Positions 3,165 through 27,625 of a stretch of DNA of 37,030 bases are shown piece by piece. This DNA comes from a virus. Its lineage: Duplodnaviria > Heunggongvirae > Uroviricota > Caudoviricetes. The notes beneath the pieces are model-generated. The model was not told the origin of the DNA, did not search any database, and saw only the letters and a program-made list of their open reading frames with translations. The position numbers and the translations under genes are program-made. The stretch lies in the IMG/VR virus record IMGVR_UViG_2861069343_000007, positions 1 through 37,030 of that record; one strand, written 5' to 3'. Position 1 is the stretch's first letter, and the number at the start of each line of letters is the position of its first letter.

Positions 3165-4265
3165 TCATTCCATTTCGAAATCATCAATCCTCACTTCAAG
3201 CTCCAGACTGGTCGTAAAACCGTTATCCGGGCTGACGGTATGCGTCAGAGTCGTAATGGTCCATTCCGCATCATCTATCGGCTGTTTAAAGCCACTGACT
3301 TTCACTGGCATTTCCGTGTAGAGATCTGCCCGCCCTTCCGCCAGTTGTAGCGAGAATGACGCAACGCCGCGTTGCAGGCGTTCCCACTGCATTTTCGCTG
3401 CCCGTTCGGCGTTACTCCGATTAGCATAGGTGCGATTAAGTACCAGCACGTTTTCATCCGTACCCACCAGGTAATCGCCCTGCTTCGCTTCCGGCTCTTT
3501 CTTCTGCTTCTTAGTCCTGCGCTTACGCTTCACCGTGGTGCTTTCTTTCTTCGCGGGTTCGCGGGTATGCAACCAGCTGGCAATTATGCCCGTATAGGCT
3601 CCGCGATCTGCCAGGGTAAAGCGGTGACTGTCGCCGTCCTTACGTGTGATAGTGATCACCGGCAGTGGTTTACCGCTGGCACTTTTGCCCTGTCCCTGCC
3701 GGATGAATAACAGATTGCCATTTTTCACCGACGCAATAGCACCGTACTGGCGCGCCAGCCGCATCAGAAAACTACCGTCACTCTCATTAGTCTGGTCTAT
3801 ATGCTCCACGAGCTTATCCGACAGGTCTTTACCCAGTACCATCTTCAGCTTGTGCCGCGCGGCTATCTCCTTCACCACTTCCCCAATGGTGGTCTTGTGC
3901 CACGATTTTTCACGGCGGGTATTCAGCGTTTCCCGAAAATCAGCACTTCGCGCCCGGATAGTCAGGCGGTCCGGTGCGCCAGTGTGTTCAATCTCGTCCA
4001 CTGTGAATGCCCCTTTCGGGAAAAGCGGCTGCCCCTTCCAGCCCAGCGCCAGCGTAATGACCGCACCACGGCGCGGCAGCACGATTTTTCCGTCAGCGTC
4101 ATCCAACTCCAGATCAAGCTGGTCCGCTTCAAAGCCCCGGTTATCCGTCAGCGTCAAACTCATCAGGCGGTTATCCAGCACAGTGGTGATATCCCTGCCC
4201 TCAATACTGATGCTGAATGCGGGAGTTTTGTTGCCTTTGTTAAGCAGTTCTGAGCTGAAATTCAC
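3165..4265 (-). CDS. D: Tail protein gpD (late control D)
   Basis: 366 aa; position and similarity to P2 gpD; 4-nt overlap with gpU. Confidence 0.85.
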   Translation of the reverse strand: MNFSSELLNKGNKTPAFSISIEGRDITTVLDNRLMSLTLTDNRGFEADQLDLELDDADGKIVLPRRGAVITLALGWKGQPLFPKGAFTVDEIEHTGAPDRLTIRARSADFRETLNTRREKSWHKTTIGEVVKEIAARHKLKMVLGKDLSDKLVEHIDQTNESDGSFLMRLARQYGAIASVKNGNLLFIRQGQGKSASGKPLPVITITRKDGDSHRFTLADRGAYTGIIASWLHTREPAKKESTTVKRKRRTKKQKKEPEAKQGDYLVGTDENVLVLNRTYANRSNAERAAKMQWERLQRGVASFSLQLAEGRADLYTEMPVKVSGFKQPIDDAEWTITTLTHTVSPDNGFTTSLELEVRIDDFEME

Positions 4266-4747: not shown

Positions 4748-7700
4748 GCGTCGTATCCCCCCTGATCGCTGTAGTTACTCCTGGCTTTTGCCTTCAGCCT
4801 GCGTTCACGTTCATCAAGCTGGCGGGCCACCTCCCGCGCAATATCCTGCGCACTTTGTCCTGGCTGCGTCTGGATGATGATCTGCGTCGGTGCCTCAATC
4901 CGGTGAACGGGCGGTACAGTGGCTGCACGACTCACCATCGCTTCGCCGCCTTTCGCGGGAAGTGCCAAAGGATGCAACGGTGGAAGCTCTGCAGGCGCGG
5001 CAGCAACGCCCATCATTCCGGCAACAACGGCAGCCAGTGCAGCTGTATTTCTCCGGCTGGTCACATTTGCCGGGCCGTTAACAATTTCCGGCCCGTTTTC
5101 ACCGACGATGCCAAACTGCCCGCGCGGGATATAGCCGCCGCTGTCATACATCCCCGCAAAGCCATATCCCCATGACGGAAAACCACCCGATGGCATCATC
5201 ACTTTACCGTCTGCATTCACCGTCGCAGGTTGCTGACGCGTCACTCTTTCCGGCAGTTTCGCCTTTGCAGCCTCTTTACTGACAATGCCGAGTTTCTCCA
5301 GCAACCAGGAAACGCCGGATTTCAGGGAGTCCAGCGGATGCATGACCATATTCAGCCCTTCCGCCAGTGCCTCCCCGAATCGTCGCCCCATTGCCGCTGC
5401 GCTCTGCAGTTCGGCAGAGGTCGACTTAACGGGCGTCAGCAGATCAGTAAACCAGCCCCACAACGCCTGCACTTTGTCGCCAATCCACTGAAACACAGGC
5501 TTAAGTGGTTCGAATGCTGCACTGATGGGACCTGCCGCCGCTTTGAATCCTTCCACCACACCAGCGAGAAATGCGGTGATGGGTTGCCAGTATTTCCAGA
5601 CAACCAGCGCCACGCCCGCCAGTGCAGTAACCACAAGACCTATCGGACTGAGCAGAGCACCTAACAGACCAGATATGGCATACAGGGCAACGCGCAGCAT
5701 CGCCAGCGGACCGGATGCCAGTACTCGCAGCACCGCGCCTGCGGCAGCCAGTCCACCGCGTAGTGCTGCCAGTGGATTCATAAACATCACAGCAACAGCA
5801 CGTAAACCGGATAATCCAGACCGCAAAAGTGCAACCGGCGCACCTGCTACAGTTTTCAGGACATTTCCCGTCAGTGATGCCGTGCGGCGCAAAGACGACA
5901 ACGGCGCAGTAAGTAAACCTGCGGCGTTGCCCGATGAAGCAAGCCCGCGTCGCAGCAGTGCCAGTGGTGCGCCAGCCATCCAGAACAACGCGTTGCTGGT
6001 TCGGGTTACTGCTGCCGTAACGGAAGGTAACGTTTTGATACCCAGCACAGAGAATCCCAGACGGATGACTGCCAGCGGCCCCAGCACTGCAGCCAACGCC
6101 ACCGCTAAGGTGCCGAGGCCTACGGTAACCGCAGCCACAACAGCGGCTACTTTCATCAATGTGCCCGTCAGTTCCGGGTTAGCTTCCACCCAGCGACGCA
6201 ACGCTCCCGTAACGCTTTTCACCGTGTACAGAATATCCATCAGCGGCTGGCGCAGCGTTTCGCCCAGGCTGCTGAAGGTGTTCTGCGCTCCGGTTTTGAC
6301 CAGCAACCACTGAGCAGAAAGTGAGTCTTTGTTGATGTCGGATTCTTTCTGCATGGAACCGAGCGCATCATTGCCCGCTGTCAGTTTTAGCTGGCGCTGC
6401 AGTTCCGGAAGGTTGTTTGCCAGTTTCGCCGCGTCATCGCCAAACTCTTTACCAAACAACATGGTCATGGCAGACAGACGCTTATCCTGCGGCAGTGCGT
6501 TTACCTTCTCCAGCACACGCTGGATAGTTCCCATCGCATCCTTCGTCATCTGCTTTTCAATCACTTCAGGATTGAGTTTCAGCAGATTCATCCCTTCAAA
6601 GAAACTCTTGCTCTGCATGGTGGCAATAGACAATTCTCGCACCATCGCGTTTGCTGCACTGGCTGCAACCTCCGGCGCAGCGCCCAGTGTCAGGAAGGTG
6701 GAACCCAGCGCCGCCGCTTTACGATAATCCAGACGGTCAGCCACCCCGCCCAGACGTTGCATCACATCAATGATGTCCGCCCCTTTCGACATGGCGTTAT
6801 CATCCAGATAGTTCAGCGCATCGCCGAGCTGTTCAATATTGCGGGTAGGTATTTTGTAGAGCTGGGCGATTTTCCCCAGACTTTCTGACAGTTCATCCGC
6901 TGGCAGCTCAAAGGCTGTTGCCGCCTTTGCTGCCGTACTGGCGAAGGCCAGCAGGTCACGCTTCTGGTCTTCCCAGCTGTCGTCAGGGTTTGCGACGTTC
7001 ATGCGCGCCCCACCTTCAACCAGTGCGGCGAAGTCCACAGCACCGTTTTCCATCGGCAACTGTTCGCTGGCAGCCTTGATGGCACCCTGCATTTCGTAAA
7101 AACGCGCGGTGCGGTTGCCATTATCGTCACGCAGACCACTGACCTGCTTTGCCACACCTTTCATGGCATCTTCCATGCTGGTATAGCTTTTTACTGCCGC
7201 CATCACTGGCGCGCCCATTGCCAGCCCTGCCGCCGTGGTGGTGGCTCCGGCACCTGCAATACGATCACGTACCTCCAGCGAACGGGCATAACTGGCACGC
7301 GCCGCATTCATCCTGCGCTGAGCTTCCCCCAGTCGCTTCAGCCGCGCCTCCTGTTTCGACAATTCCTGGTTATAACGGGATGTTTCACGGGCTAAACGGG
7401 CAGTTGCTCCCGCATCATCTTTCGCAGAAATTCCCGCCCGGTACAGTTCTGCACGCACAAGCGCCGTTTGCTTCTGCAAATATTTTTGTTGTTCTTCCAG
7501 GCGTTGGACTGCCAGCGTTTGCCGACCTAAAGCCACAAGGTGCCGTTGTGATGGTTGTTCCATCGCCTCCAGCTCAGAGCTAAGCAATTTAGCCTTCTGT
7601 CTGGCATAGTTCAGCCTGTCGCCTAACTTCTTGTTATCGGCCTGCAGCTTGCGAAATTTTTCCAGGCTGTTACCCGCCTGATTGAGTTGCTTTAATGCGT

Positions 7701-8829: not shown

Positions 8830-10002
8830 TTACGCGCTGACCTGGCTGGAGAAATTCACCAGGTACTGATCGGTGATGCGCTGACGCAGCATCAGGTTTT
8901 CAAGTGGCGGCACTGGTGTGTAGTCGTAGTCGATGGTGAGTTTTCCAGCTTTCAGAGTGTCTTTATCGTTCACCGACTCATCCAGCCAGCAATCGCCACC
9001 AATGAGATAGCCCTGACTGATCAGGCTGCGCATTTTGGCGCGGATACCTTCGATAATGTCGCGGGCCAGCGACGGATTCAGCGGTTTGTCGACCGCCCAC
9101 ATTGGCGCTTCTGCCATCGTGTCCATCAGCACCTGCGCCGTGCGGGTGTAGTTTTCGAAGGCAAAGAGTGGGTCATCACTCAGGCAGCGGGAACCCCAGA
9201 AGCGGAAACCGTCTTTGCGGATAAGCGTGGTAACGTCGTTCTGGTTAAGCAGACCTGCATCGGTTGCCGGGTCCTGCAGATCCCAGAACACATCTGCAGA
9301 AATTCCGGTGACACCGTTCACGCCCACGTTGGACAGGCTTTTGTGCCACCCGGTTTGCTCATCAATTTTGGCACGCAGACCAAGCGCACGGGCGGTGGCA
9401 TATGCCGTTGCGTCGGCATTCAGCACCGTGTCCCAGCCAGTAAAGTCGGGCCAGATCAGCATCCCTTCACGCTGGCTGAAGTTTTTACGGTAAGTGATTG
9501 CTTCCTGCACCGTCTTGCAACCATACGCTGACAGGTAAGCAAACCCACGCAGGCTTTGCGCCACGCCCAGCAACTCAGTAGCAACGGCTTTGTTATCGTG
9601 CCCCGGCACGCCGAGAATGCGCGGTTTAACACCGAGCTGTGACTGGGCAGATAACAGGGCTTTCATACCAGTTTTTTTACCTTCAGCAGTCACTGCGCCG
9701 ATGATATTGGTCGTGGTTTCTTCTTCCGTTTCACCCTGCGGCACACGCACAACAACGGTCACGGGTTTTGCCTGGTCAGCGATGGCATCCAGCGAACGGG
9801 CCAGCGTACCTGACTCACCCGCTTTACCGCTGGCAGTAAGCACATCAGTGATCAGCACGGGTTTATTAAGAGGGAACATTTTTGCATCGGCATCATCGCC
9901 CGTGCAGACCATGCCCACGATGGCGGTGCTCACCGTAGTAATGGATCGAGTGCCTTCGTTGACTTCAACAACGCGCACTCCGTGGTGGTAATCCTGAGCC
10001 AT
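8830..10002 (-). CDS. FI: Contractile tail sheath protein gpFI
   Basis: 390 aa; P2 FI-like. Confidence 0.9.
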
Positions 10003-10096: not shown

Positions 10097-10108
10097 AAAT
10101 GACGGTAT

Positions 10109-10522
10109 TTATCTGCTTGCAGGGAAAACAGGCCAAATGATATCAGGTGCGGTGCTGGTATCTGTTGCCGTCACAGCCTCGATATAATCCAGCACAACGT
10201 TAAGTCGGGTAGTTTCTTCTTGCGTCAGTTTGCGCCCGGCCTGCAGCTTTAACTGAATCACGCTGATATTGGCCATTGCTGCGTCTATCAGCGACTGTTT
10301 TTTCTGTTCAGCGTCAGCTACCAGTTCATTATGAGAACGTTCCGGAGGGAGCGGCGCAGTAAATACCCCGTCTGAATACCCCCAGCCAATTCCGGGATGC
10401 TCACTGATATCAGAAATATCAATGAGCTGCTGATTATCCGGCACTGTGAATTCAGCCTCGCCATCCCAGACAATGACATTCACAACCATCCCATTTTCAA
10501 TAACTGCATATGACGCATTCAT
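10109..10522 (-). CDS. G: Tail fiber assembly protein (gpG/Tfa family)
   Basis: Directly downstream of H; start at MNASYAVIENG where its ATG overlaps the H stop (TAATG). Confidence 0.8.
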   Translation of the reverse strand: MNASYAVIENGMVVNVIVWDGEAEFTVPDNQQLIDISDISEHPGIGWGYSDGVFTAPLPPERSHNELVADAEQKKQSLIDAAMANISVIQLKLQAGRKLTQEETTRLNVVLDYIEAVTATDTSTAPDIIWPVFPASR

Positions 10523-12837
10523 TATGCAAACTCCTCGATAATACAAATCCCTGCAGCGCCTTTCCCGCCCGTCATACTGGTTCCGCTATAACCGGCATCG
10601 TATGCACCACCTCCGCCTGAACCATATGCCTTACCACTAACACCACCGCCAGCGCCTGCGCGTCCACCGCCGCCCCAGTGCGATGTTCCGCCTTCACCGC
10701 TGACGCTGATATTTCCGGACTGACCGTCGCCTCCATCTCCACCAGTGATGCGGATATCGCCAGTACTCGGCACACCTCCGTTACCGCCGTTTGTGTTTGT
10801 AACACCCACTTTCCCGCCGCCTGCGCCACCAGGAGCAATTAACGATGCGAATACGCTATTCCCGCCCCTGGTGCCGTTCGTCGCACTAACACCACCGGCC
10901 CCACCTGCGCCGATAGTGACTGGATAACTATTCTGTGTCGGGGTCATTATTGAAATTATTGTTCCACCGGCCCCACCGCCAGCACCGAAAAACGTTTCAT
11001 TATTGGATGTAGCCTTGCAGCCGCCCCCTCCGCCACCGCCGCCCGTTATTGTGACCCTGAGCCGTTTTGTTCCTGGCGTCGGGATGTACGTACCTGATGA
11101 CGTGAAAACCCTAGTGCTTATCAGGCGCCCAACGTATCCACTTTCATCGCTCAAGCCAAGGTCAGTAGTAGTAGGTTTATTTTTAGTGTTATACGCTCTG
11201 CGCCATCCAGGTGAATAACTTGTGCTGCCAGACACGTTAAACACATAGATAAACTCCGCATTAGTGAGTGCACCAGAGACACTTGTCGTCGTGGCTGTTG
11301 TTATTCGAATAGTGTAATTGTCGGTATTATTGCTGAATACTTCTATCACAGCACCCGTCAGTGGAATAATGCCACAACCAGTTTCACTGTCTGGTATGGA
11401 TGCACTAGTTGCATACGACCATGCACAACGAGCGAACCATGCTTTCGTATTGAATGCCCCATTATTTTGCAACAAAGTAACTAACTGAGCTGTCGTTATT
11501 GACTCACCGTTATTACCTGTTTTTAACCAACCAGTAGGAGATGCCGGGCAACCAATATACTGAATAACCTCCTGTGTGCTTGTTTTAGCCAGAATATCCC
11601 GTCCAACATTAGTCAGTGTTGTCAAGCTGGCTGTATCATTCCCCGTAAAATACGGTAGTTTGTCTGCCGCAGTGGCAAGGCCTGCCAGTGCGGTCAGTGT
11701 GGCGTCGGCAGGTTGTTTTCCATTGGCAAGGTCATATACAGCCTTCACGGCTTTTGGTGTGGCAGCCTGCGTTTCTGACGTGCTGTTAGTGGCGCTGCTG
11801 AGTTGCACGGTGCCTTTTACCGTCAGTGAAGCTGCAGGCACATCCGTTATCTGGCTCCACGGGTGCGTGTGACTGACAGGTGCCTTACCTGCTGCAAGGT
11901 CATATGCCGCCTTCACTGCCTTTGGTGTGGCAGCCTGCGTTTCTGACGTGCTGTTAGTGGCACTGCTGAGTTGCACGGTGCCTTTTACCGTCAGTGAAGC
12001 TACAGGCACATCCGTTATCTGATTCCACGGGTGTGTGTGACTGACAGGTGCCTTACCTGCTGCAAGGTCATATGCCGCCTTCACTGCCTTTGGAGTGGCG
12101 GCCTGCGTTTCTGATGTGCTGTTAGTGGCGCTGCTGAGTTGCACAGTGCCTTTTACCGTCAGCGAGGCTGCAGGTACACCTGTTATCTGATTCCACGGGT
12201 GTGTGTGACTGGCGGATGCTTTACCTGCTGCAAGATCATATGCAGCCTTCACAGCCTTCGGTGTTGCGGCCAGTATTTCGGATTCACTGTTGGTCGCACT
12301 GCTTAACTGAGTAAAACCTTTTGCGGTCAGCGAGGCGTCCGGGTGACGTCGTGACTGTTCGTGCTCTGATATTTTGTCATCCACATACTTGCGAGTTGCC
12401 AGTACTACAGCAGGGTCGATTTTCAGGGTGATATTGTCCGTACTGCTGGTAATCAGCACCATGCGCACGGTCTGGGTGCGCCCGCTGCCTTCAGCCAGTT
12501 GCGGTTTATAGCTTTCCGGGCAGTTCCCCACGGCAATCAATGCCCCTGACTCATCAAACAGGCCCACTTCACGTATCCACCAACCGCCCTCGTTTTCAGG
12601 GATCACCTGTTCAGCAATAATCTGGCTGCTGTTCTGCGGGTCGATATAGAGCATATTCAGTGCAGCCCGGCGTTTCTCATTTACCAGTGCAGTCTGCTTT
12701 GCGTCCGGCGTCGGCAATGCTCCGCCGCCATCGCCCACCGCCATATGGGTAATTTTTAGCGGCACACCAAGCGCGGCGGCGCTGGCAAGTTTCGCCGCGC
12801 CAATATCCGTCAGCAGGGTATAAAATTTTGTGCTCAT
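10522..12837 (-). CDS. H: Tail fiber protein gpH with four tandem fiber repeats and glycine-rich C-terminal domain
   Basis: 771 aa; P2 H-like N-terminus; four ~57-aa repeats (SLTVKGTVQLSSATNSTSETQAATPKAVKAAYDLAAGKAPVSHTHPW); C-terminal ~200 aa rich in GGxGG. Confidence 0.9.
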   Translation of the reverse strand: MSTKFYTLLTDIGAAKLASAAALGVPLKITHMAVGDGGGALPTPDAKQTALVNEKRRAALNMLYIDPQNSSQIIAEQVIPENEGGWWIREVGLFDESGALIAVGNCPESYKPQLAEGSGRTQTVRMVLITSSTDNITLKIDPAVVLATRKYVDDKISEHEQSRRHPDASLTAKGFTQLSSATNSESEILAATPKAVKAAYDLAAGKASASHTHPWNQITGVPAASLTVKGTVQLSSATNSTSETQAATPKAVKAAYDLAAGKAPVSHTHPWNQITDVPVASLTVKGTVQLSSATNSTSETQAATPKAVKAAYDLAAGKAPVSHTHPWSQITDVPAASLTVKGTVQLSSATNSTSETQAATPKAVKAVYDLANGKQPADATLTALAGLATAADKLPYFTGNDTASLTTLTNVGRDILAKTSTQEVIQYIGCPASPTGWLKTGNNGESITTAQLVTLLQNNGAFNTKAWFARCAWSYATSASIPDSETGCGIIPLTGAVIEVFSNNTDNYTIRITTATTTSVSGALTNAEFIYVFNVSGSTSYSPGWRRAYNTKNKPTTTDLGLSDESGYVGRLISTRVFTSSGTYIPTPGTKRLRVTITGGGGGGGGCKATSNNETFFGAGGGAGGTIISIMTPTQNSYPVTIGAGGAGGVSATNGTRGGNSVFASLIAPGGAGGGKVGVTNTNGGNGGVPSTGDIRITGGDGGDGQSGNISVSGEGGTSHWGGGGRAGAGGGVSGKAYGSGGGGAYDAGYSGTSMTGGKGAAGICIIEEFA
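11700..12350 (-). repeat. About four tandem ~171-bp coding repeats inside the tail fiber gene
   Basis: Near-identical DNA units beginning gcaaggtcatat... recur at ~11726, ~11897, ~12068 and (diverged) ~12232. Confidence 0.8.
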
Positions 12838-13439
12838 GGATTCACTCTCATTGTGTCAATAACATGGACCGCCCCGCCTTCATGCGCGGTGCCGCCGGAA
12901 ATAATTGTTTCGTTGATATACGGATAGATCGTGATTTCTTCGCCAAGATAGCTGGCGGCTCCCACCCAATGCGGGCCGCTGGTCTGCAGGTTGATGGACA
13001 TGCCGCTCATGTGACGGCTACATGGTTTGGCATCGCTTATCAGTCGCTCAAGTTCCAGATAGGTATCTTCAGTGATGCCCTGGTCCTGCACGCCGATATC
13101 CAGACGAAACGTGCCCGGTGCCTCTCCGGTCTGCCACCACTCAATAATGCGGATCAGAAAGCCGAACGGCTCCACCACCCGCCGCACGGCACTGGTGGTC
13201 CCTTTATGCTGATGAATATAAAAAGCATCCTTCACCACCTGGCGCTTGACGCTTTCTGTCCAGCCCTCGTCCCAGCGATCCACAGAGAACGCCCAGGCGA
13301 GATAAGGCAGGAAACTGACCGGACAGGTAGCCGGATTCCACAAGTCACGCAGCGGCACCTGCAAATCAGAAATCCCGCTACAGGTTTGCGCCAGTCGGCG
13401 CTCCAGTGAAGTTGAACCCGGTGGCAGCAGACTATTCAT
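12834..13439 (-). CDS. I: Baseplate assembly protein gpI
   Basis: 201 aa; position between J and H; overlapping stop/start. Confidence 0.8.
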   Translation of the reverse strand: MNSLLPPGSTSLERRLAQTCSGISDLQVPLRDLWNPATCPVSFLPYLAWAFSVDRWDEGWTESVKRQVVKDAFYIHQHKGTTSAVRRVVEPFGFLIRIIEWWQTGEAPGTFRLDIGVQDQGITEDTYLELERLISDAKPCSRHMSGMSINLQTSGPHWVGAASYLGEEITIYPYINETIISGGTAHEGGAVHVIDTMRVNP

Positions 13440-17098: not shown

Positions 17099-17099
17099 T

Positions 17100-19707: not shown

Positions 19708-21474
19708 ATGAACACCACACTGACACCCGCAGATCTCGATCCCCGTCGGCAGGCCATGCTGCTGTACTTTCAGGGATACCGCGTAGCCCGCATTGCTGAA
19801 ATGCTGGGCGAGAAAGTTGCAACCGTTCACAGCTGGAAAAAACGCGACAAGTGGGGTGACTATGGGCCGCTGGATCAGATGCAGCTCACCACCGCCGCCC
19901 GCTACTGCCAGCTCATTATGAAGGAGCACAAAGAAGGGAAAGATTTCAAAGAAATTGACCTGCTGGCGCGCCAGTCGGAGCGCCACGCGCGGATCGGCAA
20001 GTTTAACAATGGCGGCAACGAAGCCGACTTAAACCCTAACGTCGCCAACCGCAACAAAGGGCCGCGCCGTCAGCCGGAAAAGAATGTTTTCACCGATGAA
20101 CAGATTGAGAAGCTGGAAGAAATCTTCCATTCCTCCATGTTCAACTACCAGCGCCACTGGTGGGAAGCAGGAAAAACCAACCGCATCCGTAATCTGCTGA
20201 AGTCACGCCAGATCGGCGCGACCTTTTACTTTGCCCGTGAAGCCCTGATTGACGCCCTGCTTACCGGACGTAACCAGATTTTCCTTTCTGCCAGTAAGGC
20301 ACAGGCTCACGTCTTTAAGCAGTACATCATCGACTTCGCCAAAGAAGTCGAGGTGGAGCTGAAAGGCGATCCGATGGTGCTTCCTAACGGGGCCACACTT
20401 TACTTCCTCGGCACCAATGCCCGCACGGCTCAGAGTTACCACGGCAACCTGTATCTGGATGAATATTTCTGGATACCGAAATTCCAGGAGCTGCGCAAAG
20501 TGGCTTCCGGTATGGCTATTCACAAAAAATGGCGACAAACCTATTTTTCTACGCCATCCAGCCTGACACACAGTGCTTATCCGTTCTGGTCCGGTGCGCT
20601 GTTCAACCGTGGGCGCAACAAAGCCGACAAGGTGGACATCGACCTGTCCCACAGCAATCTGGCCCCCGGCCTGCTGTGCGCAGACGGGCAATACCGCCAG
20701 ATAGTCACCGTGGAAGATGCAGTGCGCGGCGGCTGTAACCTGTTCGACCTTGACCAGTTGCGCATGGAGTACAGCCCGGACGAATACCAGAACCTGCTGA
20801 TGTGCGAGTTTGTGGACGATCTCGCGTCCGTGTTCCCGCTCAGCGAGCTGCAGGCGTGCATGGTGGACAGCTGGGAAGTCTGGACCGACTTTCATGCACT
20901 GGCGCTGCGCCCATTTGGCTGGCGCGAAGTGTGGATCGGTTATGACCCGGCAAAAGGTACGCAGAACGGCGACAGTGCCGGATGCGTGGTGCTGGCACCG
21001 CCAGCCGTGCCGGGCGGTAAGTTTCGCATTCTTGAGCGTCACCAGTGGCGCGGGATGGACTTTCGCGCCCAGGCTGACGCCATCAAAAAACTGACCGAAC
21101 AGTACAACGTGACCTATATCGGCATCGACTCAACCGGCGTTGGTCACGGGGTTTACGAGAACGTGAAAGCGTTTTTTCCTGCCGTCCGGGAGTTTGTCTA
21201 CAACCCCAACGTTAAAAACGCCCTGGTACTCAAGGCTTACGACATTATCAGCCACCGCCGTCTTGAGTTTGACGCCGGACACACCGACATTGCGCAGTCA
21301 TTTATGGCAATCCGTCGCGCCACCACCGCCAGCGGCAACCGCCCGACCTATGAAGCCAGCCGCAGCGAAGAAGCCAGCCACGCCGATCTGGCGTGGGCAA
21401 CCATGCACGCACTGTTTAACGAACCGCTGCAGGGCGAGTCCGCCAATACCAGCAATATTGTGGAGATTTTTTGA
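19708..21474 (+). CDS. P: Terminase large (ATPase) subunit gpP
   Basis: 588 aa; P2 gpP-like; divergent from O. Confidence 0.9.
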   Translation: MNTTLTPADLDPRRQAMLLYFQGYRVARIAEMLGEKVATVHSWKKRDKWGDYGPLDQMQLTTAARYCQLIMKEHKEGKDFKEIDLLARQSERHARIGKFNNGGNEADLNPNVANRNKGPRRQPEKNVFTDEQIEKLEEIFHSSMFNYQRHWWEAGKTNRIRNLLKSRQIGATFYFAREALIDALLTGRNQIFLSASKAQAHVFKQYIIDFAKEVEVELKGDPMVLPNGATLYFLGTNARTAQSYHGNLYLDEYFWIPKFQELRKVASGMAIHKKWRQTYFSTPSSLTHSAYPFWSGALFNRGRNKADKVDIDLSHSNLAPGLLCADGQYRQIVTVEDAVRGGCNLFDLDQLRMEYSPDEYQNLLMCEFVDDLASVFPLSELQACMVDSWEVWTDFHALALRPFGWREVWIGYDPAKGTQNGDSAGCVVLAPPAVPGGKFRILERHQWRGMDFRAQADAIKKLTEQYNVTYIGIDSTGVGHGVYENVKAFFPAVREFVYNPNVKNALVLKAYDIISHRRLEFDAGHTDIAQSFMAIRRATTASGNRPTYEASRSEEASHADLAWATMHALFNEPLQGESANTSNIVEIF

Positions 21475-22499
21475 TGGGAAAGAGTAAGAAAAACCGCGCT
21501 GCGGCGACGAATCAGATCCAGCATAAAAACCAAACTTCAGTCGAAGCATTCAGCTTCGGTGATCCCGTTCCTGTTCTGGACCGCCGCGAACTGCTGGACT
21601 ATGTGGAATGCGTACAGACAGATCGTTGGTATGAGCCGCCAGTGAGTTTCGACGGGCTGGCGCGCACCTTTCGCGCCGCCGTGCATCACAGCTCACCGAT
21701 TGCAGTAAAGTGCAACATTCTGACCAGCACCTACATCCCTCACCCGCTGCTCAGCCAGCAGGCTTTTTCACGTTTTGTGCAGGACTATCTGGTATTTGGT
21801 AACGCCTACCTGGAGAAACGCACGAACCGCTTCGGTGAAGTTATCGCCCTTGAGCCTGCTCTGGCAAAATACACCCGACGCGGGTTAGACCTGGATACCT
21901 ACTGGTTTGTGCAATACGGTATGACAACCCAGCCGTATCAGTTCACGAAAGGCAGCATTTTTCACCTGATGGAACCGGATATCAACCAGGAGATCTACGG
22001 CCTGCCCGGTTATCTTTCTGCCATTCCGTCAGCCCTGCTCAACGAGTCCGCCACGCTGTTCCGCCGCAAGTATTACATTAACGGCAGTCATGCAGGCTTC
22101 ATCATGTACATGACCGATGCCGCGCAAAACCAGGAGGATGTGAACAACCTCCGCAACGCAATGAAAAGCGCCAAAGGACCGGGTAACTTCCGCAACCTGT
22201 TTATGTACTCGCCTAACGGCAAAAAGGATGGGCTTCAGATCATTCCTCTGTCAGAAGTCGCGGCGAAGGATGAGTTTCTGAATATCAAGAACGTGAGCCG
22301 GGACGACATGATGGCGGCGCACCGCGTACCGCCGCAAATGATGGGGATTATGCCTAGCAATGTCGGGGGGTTTGGGGATGTGGAGAAGGCTAGTAAGGTA
22401 TTCGTAAGAAACGAATTGATGCCCCTGCAGAAACGATTGCAGGAACTAAATAACTGGTTGGACGAAGAAGTGCTCAATTTTTCAACCTATGAGCTTTAG
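21471..22499 (+). CDS. Q: Portal protein gpQ
   Basis: 342 aa; P2 gpQ-like; start overlaps P stop. Confidence 0.9.
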   Translation: MMGKSKKNRAAATNQIQHKNQTSVEAFSFGDPVPVLDRRELLDYVECVQTDRWYEPPVSFDGLARTFRAAVHHSSPIAVKCNILTSTYIPHPLLSQQAFSRFVQDYLVFGNAYLEKRTNRFGEVIALEPALAKYTRRGLDLDTYWFVQYGMTTQPYQFTKGSIFHLMEPDINQEIYGLPGYLSAIPSALLNESATLFRRKYYINGSHAGFIMYMTDAAQNQEDVNNLRNAMKSAKGPGNFRNLFMYSPNGKKDGLQIIPLSEVAAKDEFLNIKNVSRDDMMAAHRVPPQMMGIMPSNVGGFGDVEKASKVFVRNELMPLQKRLQELNNWLDEEVLNFSTYEL

Positions 22500-22535
22500 T
22501 TTTAAAACGAAGACCATTAGGTCTTCGCTTTATTT
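22500..22535. terminator. Bidirectional terminator between convergent Q and retron RT
   Basis: 8-bp stem cgaagacc / ggtcttcg (loop atta), flanked by ttttaaaa upstream and ctttattt downstream; RT stop codon lies in the loop. Confidence 0.55.
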
Positions 22536-23479
22536 AAAGGGTTCTTTCCATATTTTTTTTCTAATTTGCTAATATAAGCTATTAATCTTCTATGGCTTTT
22601 TGAATCCACACTTAAAATAAATGACAACCATCCCCTAACGTGTTCTATCTCAGAAGATTTACCGCAAAATATATGATGTATCTTTGCTCTAATTTCTTTA
22701 TATTTTTCTCTACCTATCCCAACTTTCTCTTGTGAAATAACTAAACCTGTAACTTTCCTCTGACTACGAGGCCCACTAATACAAGTTTTTTTTGAGTTAA
22801 TAACCAATCCTTCACTTGGGATTATAGAAAATAAAAAATCACGTGCTTTAACAACCTTTTTCATAGACTGTGCAGATAAGGTGAGATCATCGGCATATCT
22901 CGTATATATCAAGCCCCGACTACCTGCATAGCCCTGAATACGATAATCAAGTTTTGAACATATTAGATTAGCTAATTTAGGTGATGATGGAGCACCTTGT
23001 GGTAGCAGATTTTTATAACAACATATTTTTGTCAAAACTGAAGATATTAGTCGATTATAACCAAGAGAATGGAACACTCCAAAAACTTTGTTAGCAGTTA
23101 AACTTGGGAAAAAATCCTCCAAATCAATATTCAGTATAAAGTTTGCCCCAATATGCGGGGTAGCATTATTCAAAATAGATTGGTGCTTTTCAAATCCAAT
23201 AGAAAAAGGAGATGACGACAGTTTATCTAAAATGTTACGTAGAACCCATCCTTGTAAGGCTTTAAGTTCTCGAGAAGGTTGGTAAATGGTTCTCATTCTC
23301 TTCTCTGGGCCTTTCTTTTCTACAGTGTAGATCCTATAGCGAAAATCAGCTGTATAGATTAACAACCGAAGTGTTTCAACAGATATGCGAGTCGCCTTAG
23401 ACATGTCATGCAAATTGTTCATGACAGGTAGGCCGAGATTTCTCAATCTAAAAGTGTTCAAATATTCAGCGGATTTCAT
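22517..23479 (-). CDS. ret: Retron reverse transcriptase (Retron-Eco1 / Ec86 RT)
   Basis: 320 aa; RT motifs including YADD (YTRYADDLTL); start codon 7 nt downstream of the a2 repeat of msr-msd. Confidence 0.93.
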   Translation of the reverse strand: MKSAEYLNTFRLRNLGLPVMNNLHDMSKATRISVETLRLLIYTADFRYRIYTVEKKGPEKRMRTIYQPSRELKALQGWVLRNILDKLSSSPFSIGFEKHQSILNNATPHIGANFILNIDLEDFFPSLTANKVFGVFHSLGYNRLISSVLTKICCYKNLLPQGAPSSPKLANLICSKLDYRIQGYAGSRGLIYTRYADDLTLSAQSMKKVVKARDFLFSIIPSEGLVINSKKTCISGPRSQRKVTGLVISQEKVGIGREKYKEIRAKIHHIFCGKSSEIEHVRGWLSFILSVDSKSHRRLIAYISKLEKKYGKNPLNKAKT

Positions 23480-23485: not shown

Positions 23486-23654
23486 TGCGCACCCTTACGT
23501 CAGAAAAAACGGGTTTCCTGGTTGGCTCGGAGAGCATCAGGCGATGCTCTCCGTTCCAACAAGGAAAACAGACAGTAACTCAGATTCAATGCAGGATGCC
23601 GAAACAACATCCAGAGGTTGACCTTAATGATAAACCTCTCGCTAAGGGTGCGCA
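23486..23654 (-). ncRNA. msr-msd: Retron msr-msd non-coding RNA (Ec86 msDNA template)
   Basis: Plus strand 23499..23585 reads gtcagaaaaaacgggtttcctggttggctcggagagcatcaggcgatgctctccgttccaacaaggaaaacagacagtaactcaga, recognised as Ec86 msd; flanking inverted repeats a1/a2 TGCGCACCCTTA at 23643..23654 and 23486..23497. Confidence 0.9.
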
Positions 23655-24565
23655 TACGGAATCTTATCATAGTTAAATGTTGATTTTCTACGGTTTTCAA
23701 AATTCATAATCTCAAGCCGCAATCGGTCAAGTGTCTTTCTATCAAAGACGCTCCTAACATAGCTAGCCCCCAAAGCAGTGACCTGATAACCATCAGTCAT
23801 TTGAAGTATTTTTCGTTCATTTATTAGACGAGAAACAACGGATCTAACAATAATTTTAGATAAAACATCATCTTGCTTTATCGCTTTAAAAGCTAGTTCA
23901 CACAGTGTGCGGTAGTTGACACTATCCAGTAAATAGATACAAGGCAATAGAAACCGCTCTGCGTATAATATATTTCCAATATCTTTTGATACTTTATTTT
24001 CTTTCCTAACCTGCTTAATAGATGCCATTAATTTTTTATATAATCGTAATTTTCTGGCAACATCAATAGATGAATCACACATTTCTTTTAGTTCATTTGA
24101 ACTACAACGCAAAACAGATTTTGAATTAAACTTACGCAACAGGCGAACAGGACCATAGTTAATAAAGCTACGTTTTGATTTAAATTTTGCATCTTGAATG
24201 CAAATCAACTTTCTCCTTAAGTTTTCATTATTAGAGAACGCACCAAGCTCTGTGAAAGACCCCGGACTTTCAGGAAATAAAATTATTACATCGACAGCTT
24301 CAGCCAGAATATTTTCTAAACTTAAAAGGCTATGCTGCCCTTGACCAGCCAAAAGATCATCAAATAGATCTTCTGGATAAAATATATCAACATCACTGAA
24401 CTTTGCTAAAAATTGTGATAATTGATGACGCCAAGATTGATGATTAGCAACGTCACCACCACATAGAAAAATGGTTATTTTAATATTAGCTCCTCGATAG
24501 AAGCCTTTCTTTGTGAGATGTCCTATAAGCTGTTGTTGCTGCTCATCGGTAAATTTTTTATTCAT
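23642..24565 (-). CDS. Retron-Eco1 accessory effector (nucleoside deoxyribosyltransferase-like domain protein)
   Basis: Immediately upstream of msr; start assigned to MNKKFTDEQ (ATG 24565..24563, GGAG 4 nt upstream) though in-frame ATGs exist upstream (24595, 24754); stop overlaps a1. Confidence 0.75.
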   Translation of the reverse strand: MNKKFTDEQQQQLIGHLTKKGFYRGANIKITIFLCGGDVANHQSWRHQLSQFLAKFSDVDIFYPEDLFDDLLAGQGQHSLLSLENILAEAVDVIILFPESPGSFTELGAFSNNENLRRKLICIQDAKFKSKRSFINYGPVRLLRKFNSKSVLRCSSNELKEMCDSSIDVARKLRLYKKLMASIKQVRKENKVSKDIGNILYAERFLLPCIYLLDSVNYRTLCELAFKAIKQDDVLSKIIVRSVVSRLINERKILQMTDGYQVTALGASYVRSVFDRKTLDRLRLEIMNFENRRKSTFNYDKIPYAHP

Positions 24566-24637
24566 AATCTCCCCGCTTTTTTCTACTTTATACATCAAGT
24601 TATGAATAGATCCAATCTCCATACCCCATGGCGCGCG

Positions 24638-24656
24638 CTCGTATCCCCGCCACGCC
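24638..24656. other. Candidate cos site (cohesive end)
   Basis: Minus strand reads GGCGTGGCGGGGATACGAG, resembling the P2 cohesive end GGCGAGGCGGGGAAAGCAC as recalled; inside a short GC-rich patch between two AT-rich islands. Confidence 0.4.
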
Positions 24657-24697
24657 TGCCCGCTTTGTGTAGTGGTTTTCATGCACCTGCATGACAT

Positions 24698-24722
24698 AAG
24701 TAAAAGCCCGCCAGAACTGGCG
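24698..24722 (-). terminator. Hairpin with U-tract on the minus strand in the cos-proximal region
   Basis: cccgccag..ctggcggg stem (24706..24722) followed on the minus strand by a T-run. Confidence 0.35.
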
Positions 24723-24874
24723 GGACTGAGCAAAAACGATCCTTTTGCGATCATTCATTTTCATGCGCTATAGTCATGCAACAAACGCATACGAACCATA
24801 TGGTTAGATTACTCATCAAGTCAGATGGATTTTCAGGCAGATTGCCACAGCAATTGTAAAGGAGCGAGATTGAA

Positions 24875-25876
24875 ATGGGTGGAGAGACTTCGGCTATACA
24901 ACGAGTCGCGGGTAAGATTTCTGATGATATTTTCTCAGTGTTCAAATGGGATCGTGCCGCTAGAGCGGACATGAATTGGGATTGTTGCCAAGAGGCTCAT
25001 TCCAAGAAAACACATCCAAGCGATGTTGTATTTTTCTACATAGATCCATATGAGGAGGAAATGGTCTATCTCAACACAGACCTCAAAAGCTATGCAGAAG
25101 GTACTATTGGGAAAAAAATAGTCGAGGGAGCTTTAACATCGCTTGCTTTAGCTACCGAATGTGCAAATGTCAGTGAAGAATGGCGATTGAAATATGTTCA
25201 TGATGATTCTTTAGGTTATAACGTAAGAGGGTTATTATTCTTATATAACCATGATAATTTATATGATAAAGACTTCTATGAGAATATTACAAAAAAATTA
25301 GATCACTCATCTATAAATTGCCCTCCAAACATCAAACTACATTTGCTTGACCCTTATAAAATATCAGATTTGATAAACATATCTTCTGACATAACTAAGT
25401 TAATTGGTTCAGGCAAACTTCCTCAACCTGATAAGTTCACATATTATTATCCAGATCTTTCCCTAACAAGAATAAAGCACCCTATTAATCAGACAACACC
25501 TGCAACAATTGAATTATTAACATCACCATACATTATAATAAAGCATGAGGCTTTCAGTTGGCTCAGGGATAAAAACCCTGAGGGATATGTTGTTTATTAC
25601 AATCAACCGGGGGATTCAGTAGACGAATTCGTTTACTTCTTTGATATGTTATCAACTTATCAGATATTAACCGAAGGTAAACCAATCGTATTACGCCATT
25701 GTCACATTCACCCAAATGAAAATGCCATTCATCATTTTGAAAGAGCGAAAAAGAAATACAGCACAGACTGGCTCTTAGGCGAGGATGAAAGACTTTTTCT
25801 TAAAATTGACTTCGACAAGACAGACAAAATTGTTGTTGAATATAATCTTGAACAAATCGGCATGGAGCAACGATAA
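24875..25876 (+). CDS. Hypothetical protein, first gene of three-gene cargo operon
   Basis: 333 aa; AGGAG upstream; AT-rich codon usage unlike the phage backbone; no family recognised by eye; possible PD-(D/E)xK-like pattern VVFFYID…NTDLK (speculative). Confidence 0.7.
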   Translation: MGGETSAIQRVAGKISDDIFSVFKWDRAARADMNWDCCQEAHSKKTHPSDVVFFYIDPYEEEMVYLNTDLKSYAEGTIGKKIVEGALTSLALATECANVSEEWRLKYVHDDSLGYNVRGLLFLYNHDNLYDKDFYENITKKLDHSSINCPPNIKLHLLDPYKISDLINISSDITKLIGSGKLPQPDKFTYYYPDLSLTRIKHPINQTTPATIELLTSPYIIIKHEAFSWLRDKNPEGYVVYYNQPGDSVDEFVYFFDMLSTYQILTEGKPIVLRHCHIHPNENAIHHFERAKKKYSTDWLLGEDERLFLKIDFDKTDKIVVEYNLEQIGMEQR

Positions 25877-26955
25877 TGGCTAAAAAACTATATTTCGCAA
25901 CTGATAAAAATATTTATGATGCATTACATCATAAAAGGATAACCGCTGCAAAGTTGCATGAATTATTGTTGAATCGAGGTGTGTTTTTATCACCAGAACT
26001 CGACAAGGAAATACTAATCGAGGAAATATCCAAACTTCCTCACGGATTTAATGAATTAGAACACATAAAAAAACTGGTCAAAACATATGACCCAAGGGAA
26101 AGCACTACTAGTGTGAGCTTCCAAACCTCAACAAATCAGGCCGAATTAAAAAGTGCTGCTGAAGCACTAAAAAAAACATGCTCCCCTAGTAAAGGTCAAA
26201 GCCTGAATATTGTAGCTAAAAAAGATGGCTCGCTTACAGTAGAATACAAATATGAAGAAATAGACCTGTCTAAAACTGCATTACGTCAGATCGACAAGCG
26301 GAATGTTATAATAGAACTTCGCCCTGGAGCTGACAAAGTTGAAGTACGTATGCCTCAAAACCCCGAGGCAAAAAAAGTTATTGAGAGCTTGCAAAACGAG
26401 CTATCTAAAATCAAGTCCGAACCTATCGAGCGCTTCGAAATATCATTACTAGCAATAACTGATCCTACATTGCGAAGTCAGTTTTTTCAGGAATTAATGA
26501 ATGGTCTACGCGGTTATGAGACTGATGACGTAACAAAAGTCGAATTAAATCGCAGTACTGATGCTAGTGAGGATGAAGACAAGGAAGAAACTATTGATAC
26601 CGGATTTGTTAAGAAAGCTGTCCTTAATGGTGAAGGGGTAAATAGTTCAGCTATATTTTCTCAACTACATGAGAAAGGTTATTATATCGGGCGTATTGCA
26701 TGGTCTTCAAAGCCGACAAGTGGAATTGGAGACAGAATCAACGTCGAAGCATTTTTCAAAGACTCAGAAAAATGCTGTGACTTTGCCTATCAAATTAAAG
26801 GTATAAACAATCAAAAAGAAGACGGTTTCAATGTAACCATTCGCGCGGCAACAGCACAAGAGAAAAAACATATTAGTGAATTAATTGAGTCCGCCGCTGA
26901 AAATGCCTATAATATAATAATAGGATCAGAGGTGAACGAAGATGAAAAAGGTTAA
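25876..26955 (+). CDS. Hypothetical protein, second gene of three-gene cargo operon
   Basis: 359 aa; start overlaps upstream stop (TAATG); charged and Lys/Glu-rich; no recognisable motif. Confidence 0.7.
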   Translation: MAKKLYFATDKNIYDALHHKRITAAKLHELLLNRGVFLSPELDKEILIEEISKLPHGFNELEHIKKLVKTYDPRESTTSVSFQTSTNQAELKSAAEALKKTCSPSKGQSLNIVAKKDGSLTVEYKYEEIDLSKTALRQIDKRNVIIELRPGADKVEVRMPQNPEAKKVIESLQNELSKIKSEPIERFEISLLAITDPTLRSQFFQELMNGLRGYETDDVTKVELNRSTDASEDEDKEETIDTGFVKKAVLNGEGVNSSAIFSQLHEKGYYIGRIAWSSKPTSGIGDRINVEAFFKDSEKCCDFAYQIKGINNQKEDGFNVTIRAATAQEKKHISELIESAAENAYNIIIGSEVNEDEKG

Positions 26956-27625
26956 ATGGCTTAAGTTAAACATACGGCTTGAGTTTGAAACAGCCGTTAG
27001 ACGTCTTTCTCTTGATTCTTTTACAGAGGATAAAGGGAAAGGGTTCATTTTTGATAAAATACGCCATGATTTTGCAAATGGTCGCTTTGTCGAGCGTATT
27101 GTTTATCATGATAAAATATTAAGCTTTGACGGAAGCGAAACTACCGTTGAAAGAATCGAATATCGCACCACAAATTTTAGCGTGGCTTTAGACTCTCTTC
27201 CTGTAATGCAGATTACTAACCCACCCAGAACTTTAAAGCCTTTTTCGCAGGCTTTGGTAAAAAATCTTGGCTTAGGTGTTAGTTTGGAAGAAATTGACAT
27301 AAACCCTATAGACTGGCTTAATGAAATATCTTCAAGTGTAAATATCAATTTAACACAACTTGATATTTCAAGGGTTAGAGTTTCTGATTACGCCACAGCT
27401 AAAATGCAAATAATTGGCAGCAATGATCTTAGGAAGTATTATAAAGAAGAATTAGAGGGTAAAAAAATAAGAATTGACAGGCTTGTTTGCTCTGTTAATT
27501 CATTAGAATATTCCGGTAAGCTCAAGATCACCAATAGCGGCCTTGCTTATATTGATGTTAGAAATGAGAATGAGTTTACGAAAATCGTTTTTGATACGTT
27601 AAAAAAAGTCACCCTTCAATCATAG
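26942..27625 (+). CDS. Hypothetical protein, third gene of three-gene cargo operon
   Basis: 227 aa; 14-nt overlap with upstream gene; no recognisable motif. Confidence 0.7.
   Translation: MKKVKWLKLNIRLEFETAVRRLSLDSFTEDKGKGFIFDKIRHDFANGRFVERIVYHDKILSFDGSETTVERIEYRTTNFSVALDSLPVMQITNPPRTLKPFSQALVKNLGLGVSLEEIDINPIDWLNEISSSVNINLTQLDISRVRVSDYATAKMQIIGSNDLRKYYKEELEGKKIRIDRLVCSVNSLEYSGKLKITNSGLAYIDVRNENEFTKIVFDTLKKVTLQS

What the first reader, a model, noticed from the sequence alone, without database searches (positions are those of the whole stretch)
10522..12350. Tail fiber with four tandem repeats and an unusual glycine-rich C-terminal domain
gpH here is about 100 aa longer than P2 H, with four near-identical ~57-aa repeats (171-bp DNA units) and a C-terminal ~200 aa dominated by GGxGG blocks, a composition reminiscent of glycine-rich adhesin tips. 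Such repeats are recombination-prone and the C-terminus is the likely receptor-binding determinant; this may indicate a swapped host-range module.
Basis: seen in the sequence. Interest (0 to 1): 0.4.

Follow-up and report, generated by a model that had tools for sequence, protein, structure and literature searches.

The report
Mosaic P2-type tail fibre, glycine-rich tip
This is the tail-fibre gene of a P2-like E. coli prophage whose host-recognition end, with its chaperone gene, matches a cassette also found in P1-like and Mu-tailed phages; it is a clear but ordinary example of how phages shuffle host-range modules.

Summary
The feature is real. Window 10522..12837 (minus strand) encodes a 771-aa gpH-type tail fibre, 102 aa longer than P2 H.

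- The repeat period is 168 bp / 56 aa, not 171 / 57.
- There are three full units plus one partial unit. Only units 2 and 3 are near-identical (94% DNA identity).
- A 130-140-aa domain homologous to the variable part of Mu S'/P1 S lies between the repeats and the glycine-rich end.

P2 H aligns only to aa 1-430. Residues 428-771 are 99% identical to the fibre end of a P1-like plasmid. The glycine-rich tip and the 137-aa assembly chaperone also occur in Mu-tailed prophages and in jumbo phage Goslar.

Related E. coli prophages carry 2, 3 or 4 repeats, with or without the middle domain. The swapped host-range-module reading is therefore supported.

Every component belongs to a known family. This is a new member of a known kind and of low interest. 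The receptor is unknown.

The parts
10522..12837 (-). Tail fibre gene (gpH position), 771 aa plus stop codon
   Evidence: ORF. Pfam PF12571 + 4x PF03406 + PF21722. 99.9% identical to a RefSeq-annotated 'tail fiber protein' WP_106104877.1.
12388..12837 (-). aa 1-150: N-terminal tail-collar / baseplate-attachment domain shared with P2 H
   Evidence: PF12571, E 6e-65, full length 1-150/150. Aligns with P2 H from residue 1. 95-97% DNA identity to many Escherichia/Klebsiella peduoviruses over window ~12374-12837 only.
11662..12333 (-). aa 169-392: array of 56-aa (168-bp) fibre-shaft repeats. Units: 12166-12333, 11998-12165, 11830-11997, and a partial fourth unit at 11662-11829
   Evidence: TRF period 168, 3.2 copies, 92% matches, score 896. 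Per-unit identities. Four PF03406 stretches.
12199..12207 (-). His-x-His box (HTH, aa 211-213) in unit 1. Equivalent boxes at 12031-12039 (aa 267-269) and 11863-11871 (aa 323-325)
   Evidence: Motif SHTHPW found at aa 211, 267 and 323. It is absent from the 44-aa repeat variant and from P2 H. Metal binding is inferred only, by analogy with the HxH sites of the T4 gp37 needle (own knowledge).
11557..11661 (-). aa 393-427: conserved linker (ATLTALAGLATAADKLPYFTGND...VIQYIG) shared with P2 H. It ends at the recombination breakpoint
   Evidence: Alignment with P2 H ends here. The DNA block shared with the P1-like plasmid starts at 11558.
11143..11556 (-). aa 428-565: middle domain homologous to the variable (host-range) part of Mu S' / P1-P7 S fibres. 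It is present in some alleles and absent in others
   Evidence: PDB 8ju3_A residues 200-331, E 2e-24. 78-82% identity to P1-like phage fibres and 38-40% to the Mu/P7/D108 Sv' segments. Absent from alleles L004, L011 and L012; the indel is window ~11161-11550.
10525..11124 (-). aa 572-771: C-terminal TNF-like + glycine-rich ('TG') domain, the presumed receptor-binding tip
10109..10522 (-). Tail fibre assembly chaperone, 137 aa. Its ATG overlaps the fibre stop codon (TAATG). It is co-inherited with the tip
   Evidence: PF02413, E 4e-20. Sequence. 25% identity to P2 G, 95% to the chaperone of Mu-tailed prophages, 66% to the Goslar chaperone.

Best explanation
The gene encodes the side tail fibre of a P2-like (peduovirus) prophage, built from four exchangeable modules.

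1. The P2 H-type N-terminal domain docks the trimer to the baseplate next to gpI.
2. A shaft follows, made of PF03406 repeats. Its copy number changes by in-register homologous recombination between the 168-bp units, which alters fibre length.
3. Next is a knob domain of the kind found in the variable part of Mu S' and P1 S.
4. The distal tip is a TNF-like/glycine-rich domain. Stacked extended glycine motifs form a rigid lattice and hold variable non-glycine segments that contact the host receptor. The receptor is most likely LPS or an outer-membrane protein.

The downstream 137-aa chaperone, translationally coupled through TAATG, folds and trimerises the tip. Its sequence tracks that of the tip, consistent with specificity for it.

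Modules 3 and 4 plus the chaperone form a cassette (window ~10122-11558) shared almost unchanged with the S fibre of P1-like plasmids. This points to horizontal exchange; the direction was not determined. Module 4 plus the chaperone circulates independently among Mu-tailed prophages and jumbo phage Goslar.

Shown here: the architecture, the fold, the breakpoints, the allele series and the co-inheritance of tip and chaperone.
Inferred: trimerisation, receptor binding by the tip, the nature of the receptor, and the effect of shaft length.
For: - Domain calls.
- Position between gpI and the chaperone and sheath genes.
- P2 H aligns to aa 1-430 only.
- Pam3 gp24 itself passes the PF21722 threshold.
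- The Pam3 paper (PMC9608196) describes the TNF-like plus glycine-rich domains as the distal receptor-recognising part, folded with a chaperone.
- A Klebsiella phage fibre of this fold has host-range mutations inside the glycine-rich domain, and LPS triggers its DNA ejection (PMC12671077).
- The domain ends at the C-terminus of the protein in most of the 150 best representative clusters (7,323 clusters at E<=1e-3).
- 276 viral structure models share the fold, including named tail fibres.
- Among 31 close alleles the glycine motifs are invariant, while substitutions cluster in the segments between them.
- Cassette identity and breakpoints.
- Tip and chaperone diverge in parallel: 95%/85-95% in Mu-tailed prophages and 66%/64% in Goslar.
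- Repeat alleles of 2, 3 and 4 copies with hybrid junction units.
Against: - No experiment or trimer model links this tip to a receptor.
- The sequence-only link to Pam3 is weak (phmmer E 0.004). A profile built from close alleles found nothing in the PDB. The assignment therefore rests on Pfam and on the predicted structure.
- In Mu, P1 and P7 the middle domain lies in the host-range-variable segment, so it could also contribute to specificity.
- In this window the prophage lacks most of the capsid gene, the small terminase gene and part of gene L. This copy of the fibre may therefore never be assembled on an infectious particle.
- PGAP labels the chaperone a pseudogene in several genomes, although the ORF is intact.
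Confidence: 0.8

Rival explanations
1. The fibre has two receptor-binding modules in tandem. The Mu S'/P1 S-like middle domain binds one surface structure, such as LPS core, and the glycine-rich tip binds another. This would give dual or sequential specificity.
For: - In Mu, P7 and D108 the homologous segment lies inside the invertible, host-range-determining variable part of S/S' (annotations).
- Alleles differ by presence or absence of this domain, as if it were an optional specificity add-on.
- It travels with the tip in the P1-like cassette.
Against: - Wherever the following sequence was examined (Mu S' 8ju3 residues 200-331 of 488; Vibrio phage VPT02), the domain is followed by another distal domain and is never terminal.
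- Intact alleles without it are at least as common: 27 versus 20 among the full-span matches listed. The tip alone therefore makes a complete fibre.
- No binding site is known for this domain.
Confidence: 0.15
2. The glycine-rich C-terminal domain is an intramolecular chaperone or a disposable cap that is cleaved off or plays no part in binding. The true binding surface would lie upstream.
For: Some fibres and spikes, such as the K1F endosialidase and the T5 L-shaped fibre, carry C-terminal chaperone domains that are removed (own knowledge). Chaperone caps on fibre tips are also discussed in PMC10579305, listed.
Against: - A separate, co-inherited chaperone gene is present.
- In Pam3 the homologous domain was solved as part of the fibre (PDB 7yfw/7ypx, 'Cyanophage Pam3 fiber'; PMC9608196).
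- Host-range mutations map inside the domain in a Klebsiella phage.
- No recognisable protease or autocleavage family was detected.
Confidence: 0.04
3. The gene is a decaying remnant in a defective prophage, and the repeats and glycine-rich stretch have no current function.
For: The window's prophage has a 1,569-bp deletion across genes N, M and L. The deletion junction is found in none of 5,426 complete E. coli genomes.
Against: - The fibre and chaperone ORFs are intact and 99.9-100% identical in DNA to those of the strain 3502 prophage, whose head genes are intact.
- All alleles examined are open.
- The deletion appears private, so decay has not reached the tail genes.
Confidence: 0.1

Closest known systems
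Bacteriophage P2 tail fibre gpH (NP_046775.1) with chaperone gpG
   Same: Same genomic position (V-W-J-I-H-G operon). Same PF12571 N-terminal domain. PF03406 repeats beginning with the identical RHPDASLTAKGFTQLSSATNS segment. Same linker ending ...YLG/YIG.
   Different: P2 H has two 44-aa repeats without the HTHPW box. Its last ~290 aa are unrelated. The chaperones share only 25% identity (E 0.012).
Cyanophage Pam3 tail fibre gp24 (PDB 7YPX/7YFW) with chaperone gp25
   Different: Pam3 gp24 is a minimal 280-aa fibre with an alpha-helical N-terminus. It has no PF12571 domain, no PF03406 repeats and no Mu S'-like domain. The chaperones show no detectable sequence similarity.
S fibre of P1-like phage-plasmids (e.g. 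NZ_CP029103.1) and P1/P7/Mu S' variable segments (PDB 8JU3)
   Same: Residues 428-771 are 99.1% identical to the end of the plasmid's S fibre. The middle domain is homologous to Mu S' 200-331 and 78-82% identical to P1-like phage fibres.
   Different: The N-terminal ~1,000+ aa and the repeat types differ. P1 and Mu switch tips with a Cin/Gin invertase. No invertase or alternative tip lies next to the fibre in this window.
308-aa fibre of prophages with a Mu-type baseplate (often mis-named 'carbohydrate kinase') and the jumbo phage Goslar fibre QBO63883.1
   Same: Same glycine-rich tip (85-95% and 64% identity) followed by the same 137-138-aa chaperone (95% and 66% identity).
   Different: Entirely different N-terminal attachment and shaft regions, and no Mu S'-like middle domain.
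T-even / S16 gp38 adhesin (PDB 6F45)
   Same: Glycine-rich motifs in extended conformation form a stacked lattice that displays variable receptor-binding loops (PMC9608196).
ALK/LTK receptor tyrosine kinase TNF-like/glycine-rich ectodomain (PDB 7LIR, 7LS0, 7NX1)
   Different: Eukaryotic cytokine-binding ectodomain with 15-22% identity and no functional connection.

Membership tests
P2 gpH-type tail fibre | N-terminal tail-collar domain (PF12571) at full length | tested here: met
   E 6.1e-65, 218 bits against a cut-off of 23; residues 1-150 match profile positions 1-150/150.
P2 gpH-type tail fibre | Gene lies between the baseplate gene I and a tail fibre assembly gene, upstream of the sheath gene | tested here: met
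   gpI (PF09684) at 12834..13439, chaperone (PF02413) at 10109..10522, sheath at 8830..10002.
P2 gpH-type tail fibre | C-terminal receptor-binding region homologous to P2 H | tested here: not met
   BLASTP alignment ends at aa 430 of 771, and no significant similarity follows. The protein is a gpH-type fibre by its N-terminus only.
Phage tail fibre repeat (PF03406) | Repeated ~40-aa unit matching the profile | tested here: met
   Four stretches, E 2e-72. Tandem period of 168 bp.
Glycine-rich domain PF21722 / TNF-like + glycine-rich fibre tip (Pam3 gp24 type) | Sequence score above the Pfam gathering threshold | tested here: met
   48.2 bits against 24.3; residues 580-768 match profile positions 2-224/226. 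Pam3 gp24 scores 26 bits against the same model.
Glycine-rich domain PF21722 / TNF-like + glycine-rich fibre tip (Pam3 gp24 type) | Beta-sandwich interleaved with a lattice of extended glycine-rich motifs | tested here: met
Glycine-rich domain PF21722 / TNF-like + glycine-rich fibre tip (Pam3 gp24 type) | Trimeric assembly and receptor binding by the distal loops | not testable with these tools
   Only monomer prediction was available and no binding data exist. The role is inferred from PMC9608196 and PMC12671077.
Glycine-rich domain PF21722 / TNF-like + glycine-rich fibre tip (Pam3 gp24 type) | Dedicated chaperone encoded immediately downstream | tested here: met
   137-aa PF02413 protein with a start codon overlapping the fibre stop, co-inherited with the tip.
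T-even gp38 adhesin | Separate small protein that caps the gp37 fibre tip, with the gp38 fold | tested here: not met
Invertible (Gin/Cin/Pin) host-range switch | Serine invertase and an oppositely oriented alternative fibre end plus chaperone next to the fibre | tested here: not met
   Only ~106 bp separate the chaperone from the sheath gene, and no such ORFs are present.
Diversity-generating retroelement target | Template repeat elsewhere that matches a variable repeat in the fibre's 3' end | tested here: not met
   BLASTN of 10100-12850 against the rest of the window gave no match longer than 26 bp, despite a reverse transcriptase ORF at 22517..23479.

The most novel reading that the evidence does not exclude
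The 56-aa repeat variant, each unit carrying an HTHPW His-x-His box, would form a metal-stapled shaft of adjustable length. Together with the tandem Mu S'-like knob and glycine-rich tip, it would give a two-receptor fibre whose reach through O-antigen or capsule is tuned by repeat copy number (2-4). The combinatorial allele series in E. coli would then reflect selection on both reach and dual specificity, not neutral shuffling.
Probability: 0.12. Interest if true: 0.45.

Novelty: new member of a known kind. Interest (0 to 1): 0.2.

Why it matters
- **Natural splice points.** The locus gives nucleotide-precise breakpoints for fibre engineering: '...IG|CPASP...' at window ~11557 and '...LGL(S/G)D...' at ~11161. 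At these points P2-type, P1-type and Mu-type phages have exchanged host-range cassettes together with the matching chaperone. This is useful for designing chimeric P2 or P1 fibres and tailocins.
- **A common tip with no known receptor.** The TNF-like/glycine-rich tip is present in about 5% of complete E. coli genomes (262 of 5,426), and I found no report of its E. coli receptor.
- **Annotation errors.** The same tip is labelled 'carbohydrate kinase' in many records. Its intact chaperone is labelled a pseudogene.
- **No new biology.** Horizontal exchange of tail-fibre ends among P2, P1, Mu and lambda has been known since the early 1990s (own knowledge).

Tried and rejected
- **Shallow alignment for structure prediction.** The tip modelled from 31 near-identical E. 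coli sequences failed (pLDDT 35.9). A 125-sequence alignment of 50%-identity representatives gave pLDDT 94.8.
- **Profile search of the PDB** with the shallow alignment found nothing.
- **Searching the protein collection with the Pam3 fragment** returned only four proteins. Glycine-rich words probably swamp the word index.
- **PDB sequence search with the chaperone** gave only chance-level hits such as RAD52 (E > 0.1).
- **NCBIfam** gave no meaningful hit for the fibre or the chaperone.
- **DGR targeting of the fibre** was considered and rejected, because no template/variable repeat pair exists.
- **An invertible-segment switch** was considered and rejected, because there are no invertase or alternative-tip ORFs.
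- **A low-complexity or disordered tail** was considered and rejected, given the confident fold.
- **The Mu(-) fibre paper** (Mori et al. 2024, PMID 38382161) is not held. The role of the middle domain could therefore not be taken from it.
- **The promoter/terminator scan** of the chaperone-sheath gap found nothing.
- **Literature search** for PF21722 / Gly_rich_2 found no paper.
Full report
**What is at the locus**

The finding's coordinates (10522-12350) lie inside one intact ORF, window 10522..12837 on the minus strand, encoding 771 aa.
- Upstream is a gpI homologue (12834..13439, PF09684).
- Downstream are a tail fibre assembly gene (PF02413) and the sheath gene (8830..10002).
- This is the V-W-J-I-H-G / FI order of phage P2.
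- The DNA is 99.9% identical to a RefSeq 'tail fiber protein' gene in two E. coli chromosomes. RybB sRNA at 2700-2778 also places the window in an enterobacterial chromosome.

**Checking the observation**

- Pfam finds PF12571 (aa 1-150, E 6e-65), four PF03406 'phage tail fibre repeat' stretches (E 2e-72) and PF21722 'Gly_rich_2' (aa 580-768, E 1.8e-12, 48 bits against a cut-off of 24.3).
- Tandem Repeats Finder reports a period of 168 bp, 3.2 copies, 92% matches and score 896 at 11726-12271.
- In register, the units are aa 169-224, 225-280, 281-336 and 337-392. Units 2 and 3 share 158/168 nt and 54/56 aa. Unit 1 is 76-79% identical to them in DNA. Unit 4 diverges after about 37 aa.
- The period is therefore 56 aa / 168 bp, not 57 / 171, and 'four near-identical' overstates the case.
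- The protein is 102 aa longer than P2 H (669 aa).
- Residues 580-771 are 33% glycine and contain 11 motifs with at least three glycines, such as GGGGGGGG, GAGGGAGG, GGNGG and GGDGGDG.

A ~138-aa segment (aa 428-565) lies between the repeats and the glycine-rich part.
- It matches the solved Mu G(-) fibre S' (8ju3_A residues 200-331, E 2e-24).
- By tblastn it matches P1-like phage fibres (78-82% identity) and the variable, invertible-segment parts of the Mu, D108 and P7 fibres (38-40%).
- In Mu S' and in a Vibrio phage fibre this domain is followed by a further distal domain, so it is not terminal there.

**The glycine-rich end is a folded domain of known type**

- phmmer links aa 573-771 weakly (E 0.004) to cyanophage Pam3 fibre gp24 (7yfw/7ypx). 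Pam3 gp24 itself passes the PF21722 threshold.
- A first AlphaFold2 model from 31 near-identical sequences failed (pLDDT 36).
- An exhaustive search of 1.84 billion cluster representatives found 7,323 clusters at E<=1e-3 and 1,071 at E<=1e-10. In most of the 150 best, the domain ends at the protein's C-terminus, behind N-terminal regions of very different lengths.
- A 125-sequence alignment of these representatives gave a confident model: pLDDT 94.8, pTM 0.90, nine short strands and no helices.
- Against predicted viral structures, 276 models match at E<=1e-3. They include jumbo phage Goslar (TM 0.96), fibres of Xanthomonas, Achromobacter and Edwardsiella phages, cyanophages and mycobacteriophages.
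- The Pam3 paper describes this TNF-like plus glycine-rich unit as the distal, receptor-recognising part of the fibre. It has 12 extended glycine motifs in a four-layer lattice and needs a chaperone to fold (PMC9608196).
- A Klebsiella phage fibre of the same fold has host-adaptation mutations inside the glycine-rich domain, and LPS triggers that phage's DNA ejection (PMC12671077).
- Among 31 close E. coli alleles the glycine motifs are invariant, and substitutions cluster in the segments between them (aa 626-637, 651-667, 691-700).

**Evidence for module swapping**

- P2 H aligns with aa 1-430 only. The alignment ends after the shared linker, 'VIQYIG' here and 'VIEYLG' in P2.
- The 137-aa chaperone starts at an ATG overlapping the fibre stop codon (TAATG, preceded by GAGGAG). 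It is only 25% identical to P2 G.
- An 89.6-kb P1-like plasmid (NZ_CP029103.1) has holin and lysis genes and an invertase remnant beside its S fibre. Its S fibre ends with a sequence 99.1% identical to aa 428-771. The junction reads '...PANIG|CPASPTGW' there and '...VIQYIG|CPASPTGW' here.
- At the DNA level one block, window 10122-11558, is 96.0% identical to that plasmid.
- The tip alone, plus the chaperone, occurs in prophages with a Mu-type baseplate (Mu gp44-48 homologues). There it forms a 308-aa fibre that many records call 'carbohydrate kinase'. The tip is 85-95% identical, the chaperone 95%, and the DNA block is window 10140-11162 at 91.7%.
- It also occurs in Goslar, where the tip is 64% identical and the chaperone 66%. 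Tip and chaperone therefore diverge in parallel, as expected for a co-inherited pair.
- The tip-plus-chaperone DNA is present at >=80% coverage in 262 of 5,426 complete E. coli genomes. Of all matching places, whatever their coverage, 79 lie on plasmids.

**Repeat copy number and allele series**

Among the full-span matches listed for complete E. coli genomes, allele lengths fall into discrete classes. One representative of each class was translated, and all are intact ORFs.

| Allele length | Repeats | Middle domain | Genomes |
|---|---|---|---|
| 2,316 bp | 4 x 56 aa | present | 7 |
| 1,980 bp | 2 x 56 aa | present | 8 |
| 2,076 bp | 3 x 44 aa | present | 5 |
| 1,920 bp | 4 x 56 aa | absent | 22 |
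| 1,752 bp | 3 x 56 aa | absent | 3 (includes E. coli HS) |
| 1,584 bp | 2 x 56 aa | absent | 2 |

- A further set has the 3 x 44 aa repeats and the middle domain behind a different N-terminal type.
- In the 2- and 3-copy alleles the first unit is a hybrid. It starts like unit 1 and ends like unit 2 or 3. This is the signature of in-register unequal recombination.
- The middle domain is a clean indel of window ~11161-11550, flanked by LG-containing junctions.
- The 56-aa unit differs from the 44-aa P2-type unit mainly by an extra segment containing SHTHPW. By analogy with the His-x-His iron sites of the T4 gp37 needle and the 'His boxes' of T-even fibres (own knowledge), these may be metal-binding sites in the trimer. 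This is inference only.

**Mechanism proposed**

The fibre trimer docks through its P2-type N-terminus. The repeat shaft sets its length. The P1/Mu-type knob and the TNF-like/glycine-rich tip form the distal end, and the tip's variable inter-glycine segments contact the receptor. The co-inherited chaperone folds the tip.

The architecture, fold, breakpoints and allele series are shown here. Trimerisation, receptor binding, receptor identity (LPS or an outer-membrane protein by analogy) and any length effect are inferred.

**Alternatives considered**

- Dual-receptor fibre. This is possible, because the knob lies in the variable segment of Mu, P1 and P7. However, knob-less alleles are complete fibres and are at least as common.
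- Disposable C-terminal cap. This is unlikely, given the separate chaperone and the Pam3 fibre structure.
- Decaying gene. The ORFs are intact.
- DGR target. No template repeat exists.
- Invertible switch. No invertase or second tip is present.
- Low-complexity artefact. The domain folds confidently.

**Novelty and score**

All four modules belong to curated families. The tip's fold has a solved representative. RefSeq already annotates the protein as a tail fibre. Exchange of fibre ends among P2, P1, Mu and lambda is textbook knowledge (own knowledge). I found no paper that mentions PF21722 by name.

The locus is a well-resolved new member of a known kind. Interest is about 0.2.

Noticed in passing
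window ~18015-18715 (junction at ~18360-18362): The prophage has a 1,569-bp deletion relative to the closely related prophage of E. coli strain 3502. It removes the 3' two-thirds of capsid gene N, all of small terminase gene M and the 5' part of head-completion gene L. What remains is a 118-aa N fragment and a 115-aa L fragment. The junction shows a ~6-bp overlap and is found in none of 5,426 complete E. coli genomes. It is therefore a private, recent event or an assembly error. The prophage is head-defective, while its tail and lysis genes look intact.
   Followed up: yes
window 22517-27625: Cargo lies between portal gene Q (21471..22499) and the replication genes. It includes a 320-aa reverse transcriptase ORF (PF00078, E 3e-25) at 22517..23479, a 370-aa ORF with no Pfam hit at 23642..24754, and three + strand ORFs at 24875..27625. 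Retron or defence-type cargo at the P2 hotspot is one possible reading. The content differs from the strain 3502 prophage, which carries DprA and hypothetical genes there. No DGR-type repeat links it to the fibre.
   Followed up: partly
window 10109-10522, and L001, L003, L004, L011: In several RefSeq genomes PGAP annotates the 137-aa tail fibre assembly gene as a pseudogene ('missing N-terminus and C-terminus'). The ORF is intact, translationally coupled to the fibre, and 95% identical to chaperones annotated as functional elsewhere.
   Followed up: yes
L005-L007 (6001-6927) and proteins P0005-P0120: Hundreds of E. coli records name the 308-aa glycine-rich tail fibre of prophages with a Mu-type baseplate 'carbohydrate kinase'. 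It sits directly after the Mu gp48-type baseplate gene and before a tail fibre chaperone. This is a propagated misannotation.
   Followed up: partly
L002 (NZ_CP081706.1, locus 3001-4980): PGAP splits the intact 659-aa two-repeat fibre allele into a 'glycine-rich domain-containing protein' and a pseudogene 'phage tail protein'. Translation shows one uninterrupted ORF.
   Followed up: yes
window 2700-2778 (+): RybB sRNA (Rfam RF00110, 105 bits) lies just outside the tail end of the prophage (gpD at 3165..4265). It marks the chromosomal flank and probable integration region.
   Followed up: no
window 15738-18362 versus 18360-22417: Identity to the strain 3502 prophage is 99.9% on the tail/lysis side of the deletion but 95.9% on the head-gene side (N', O, P, Q). 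The prophage may therefore be mosaic across that junction.
   Followed up: no
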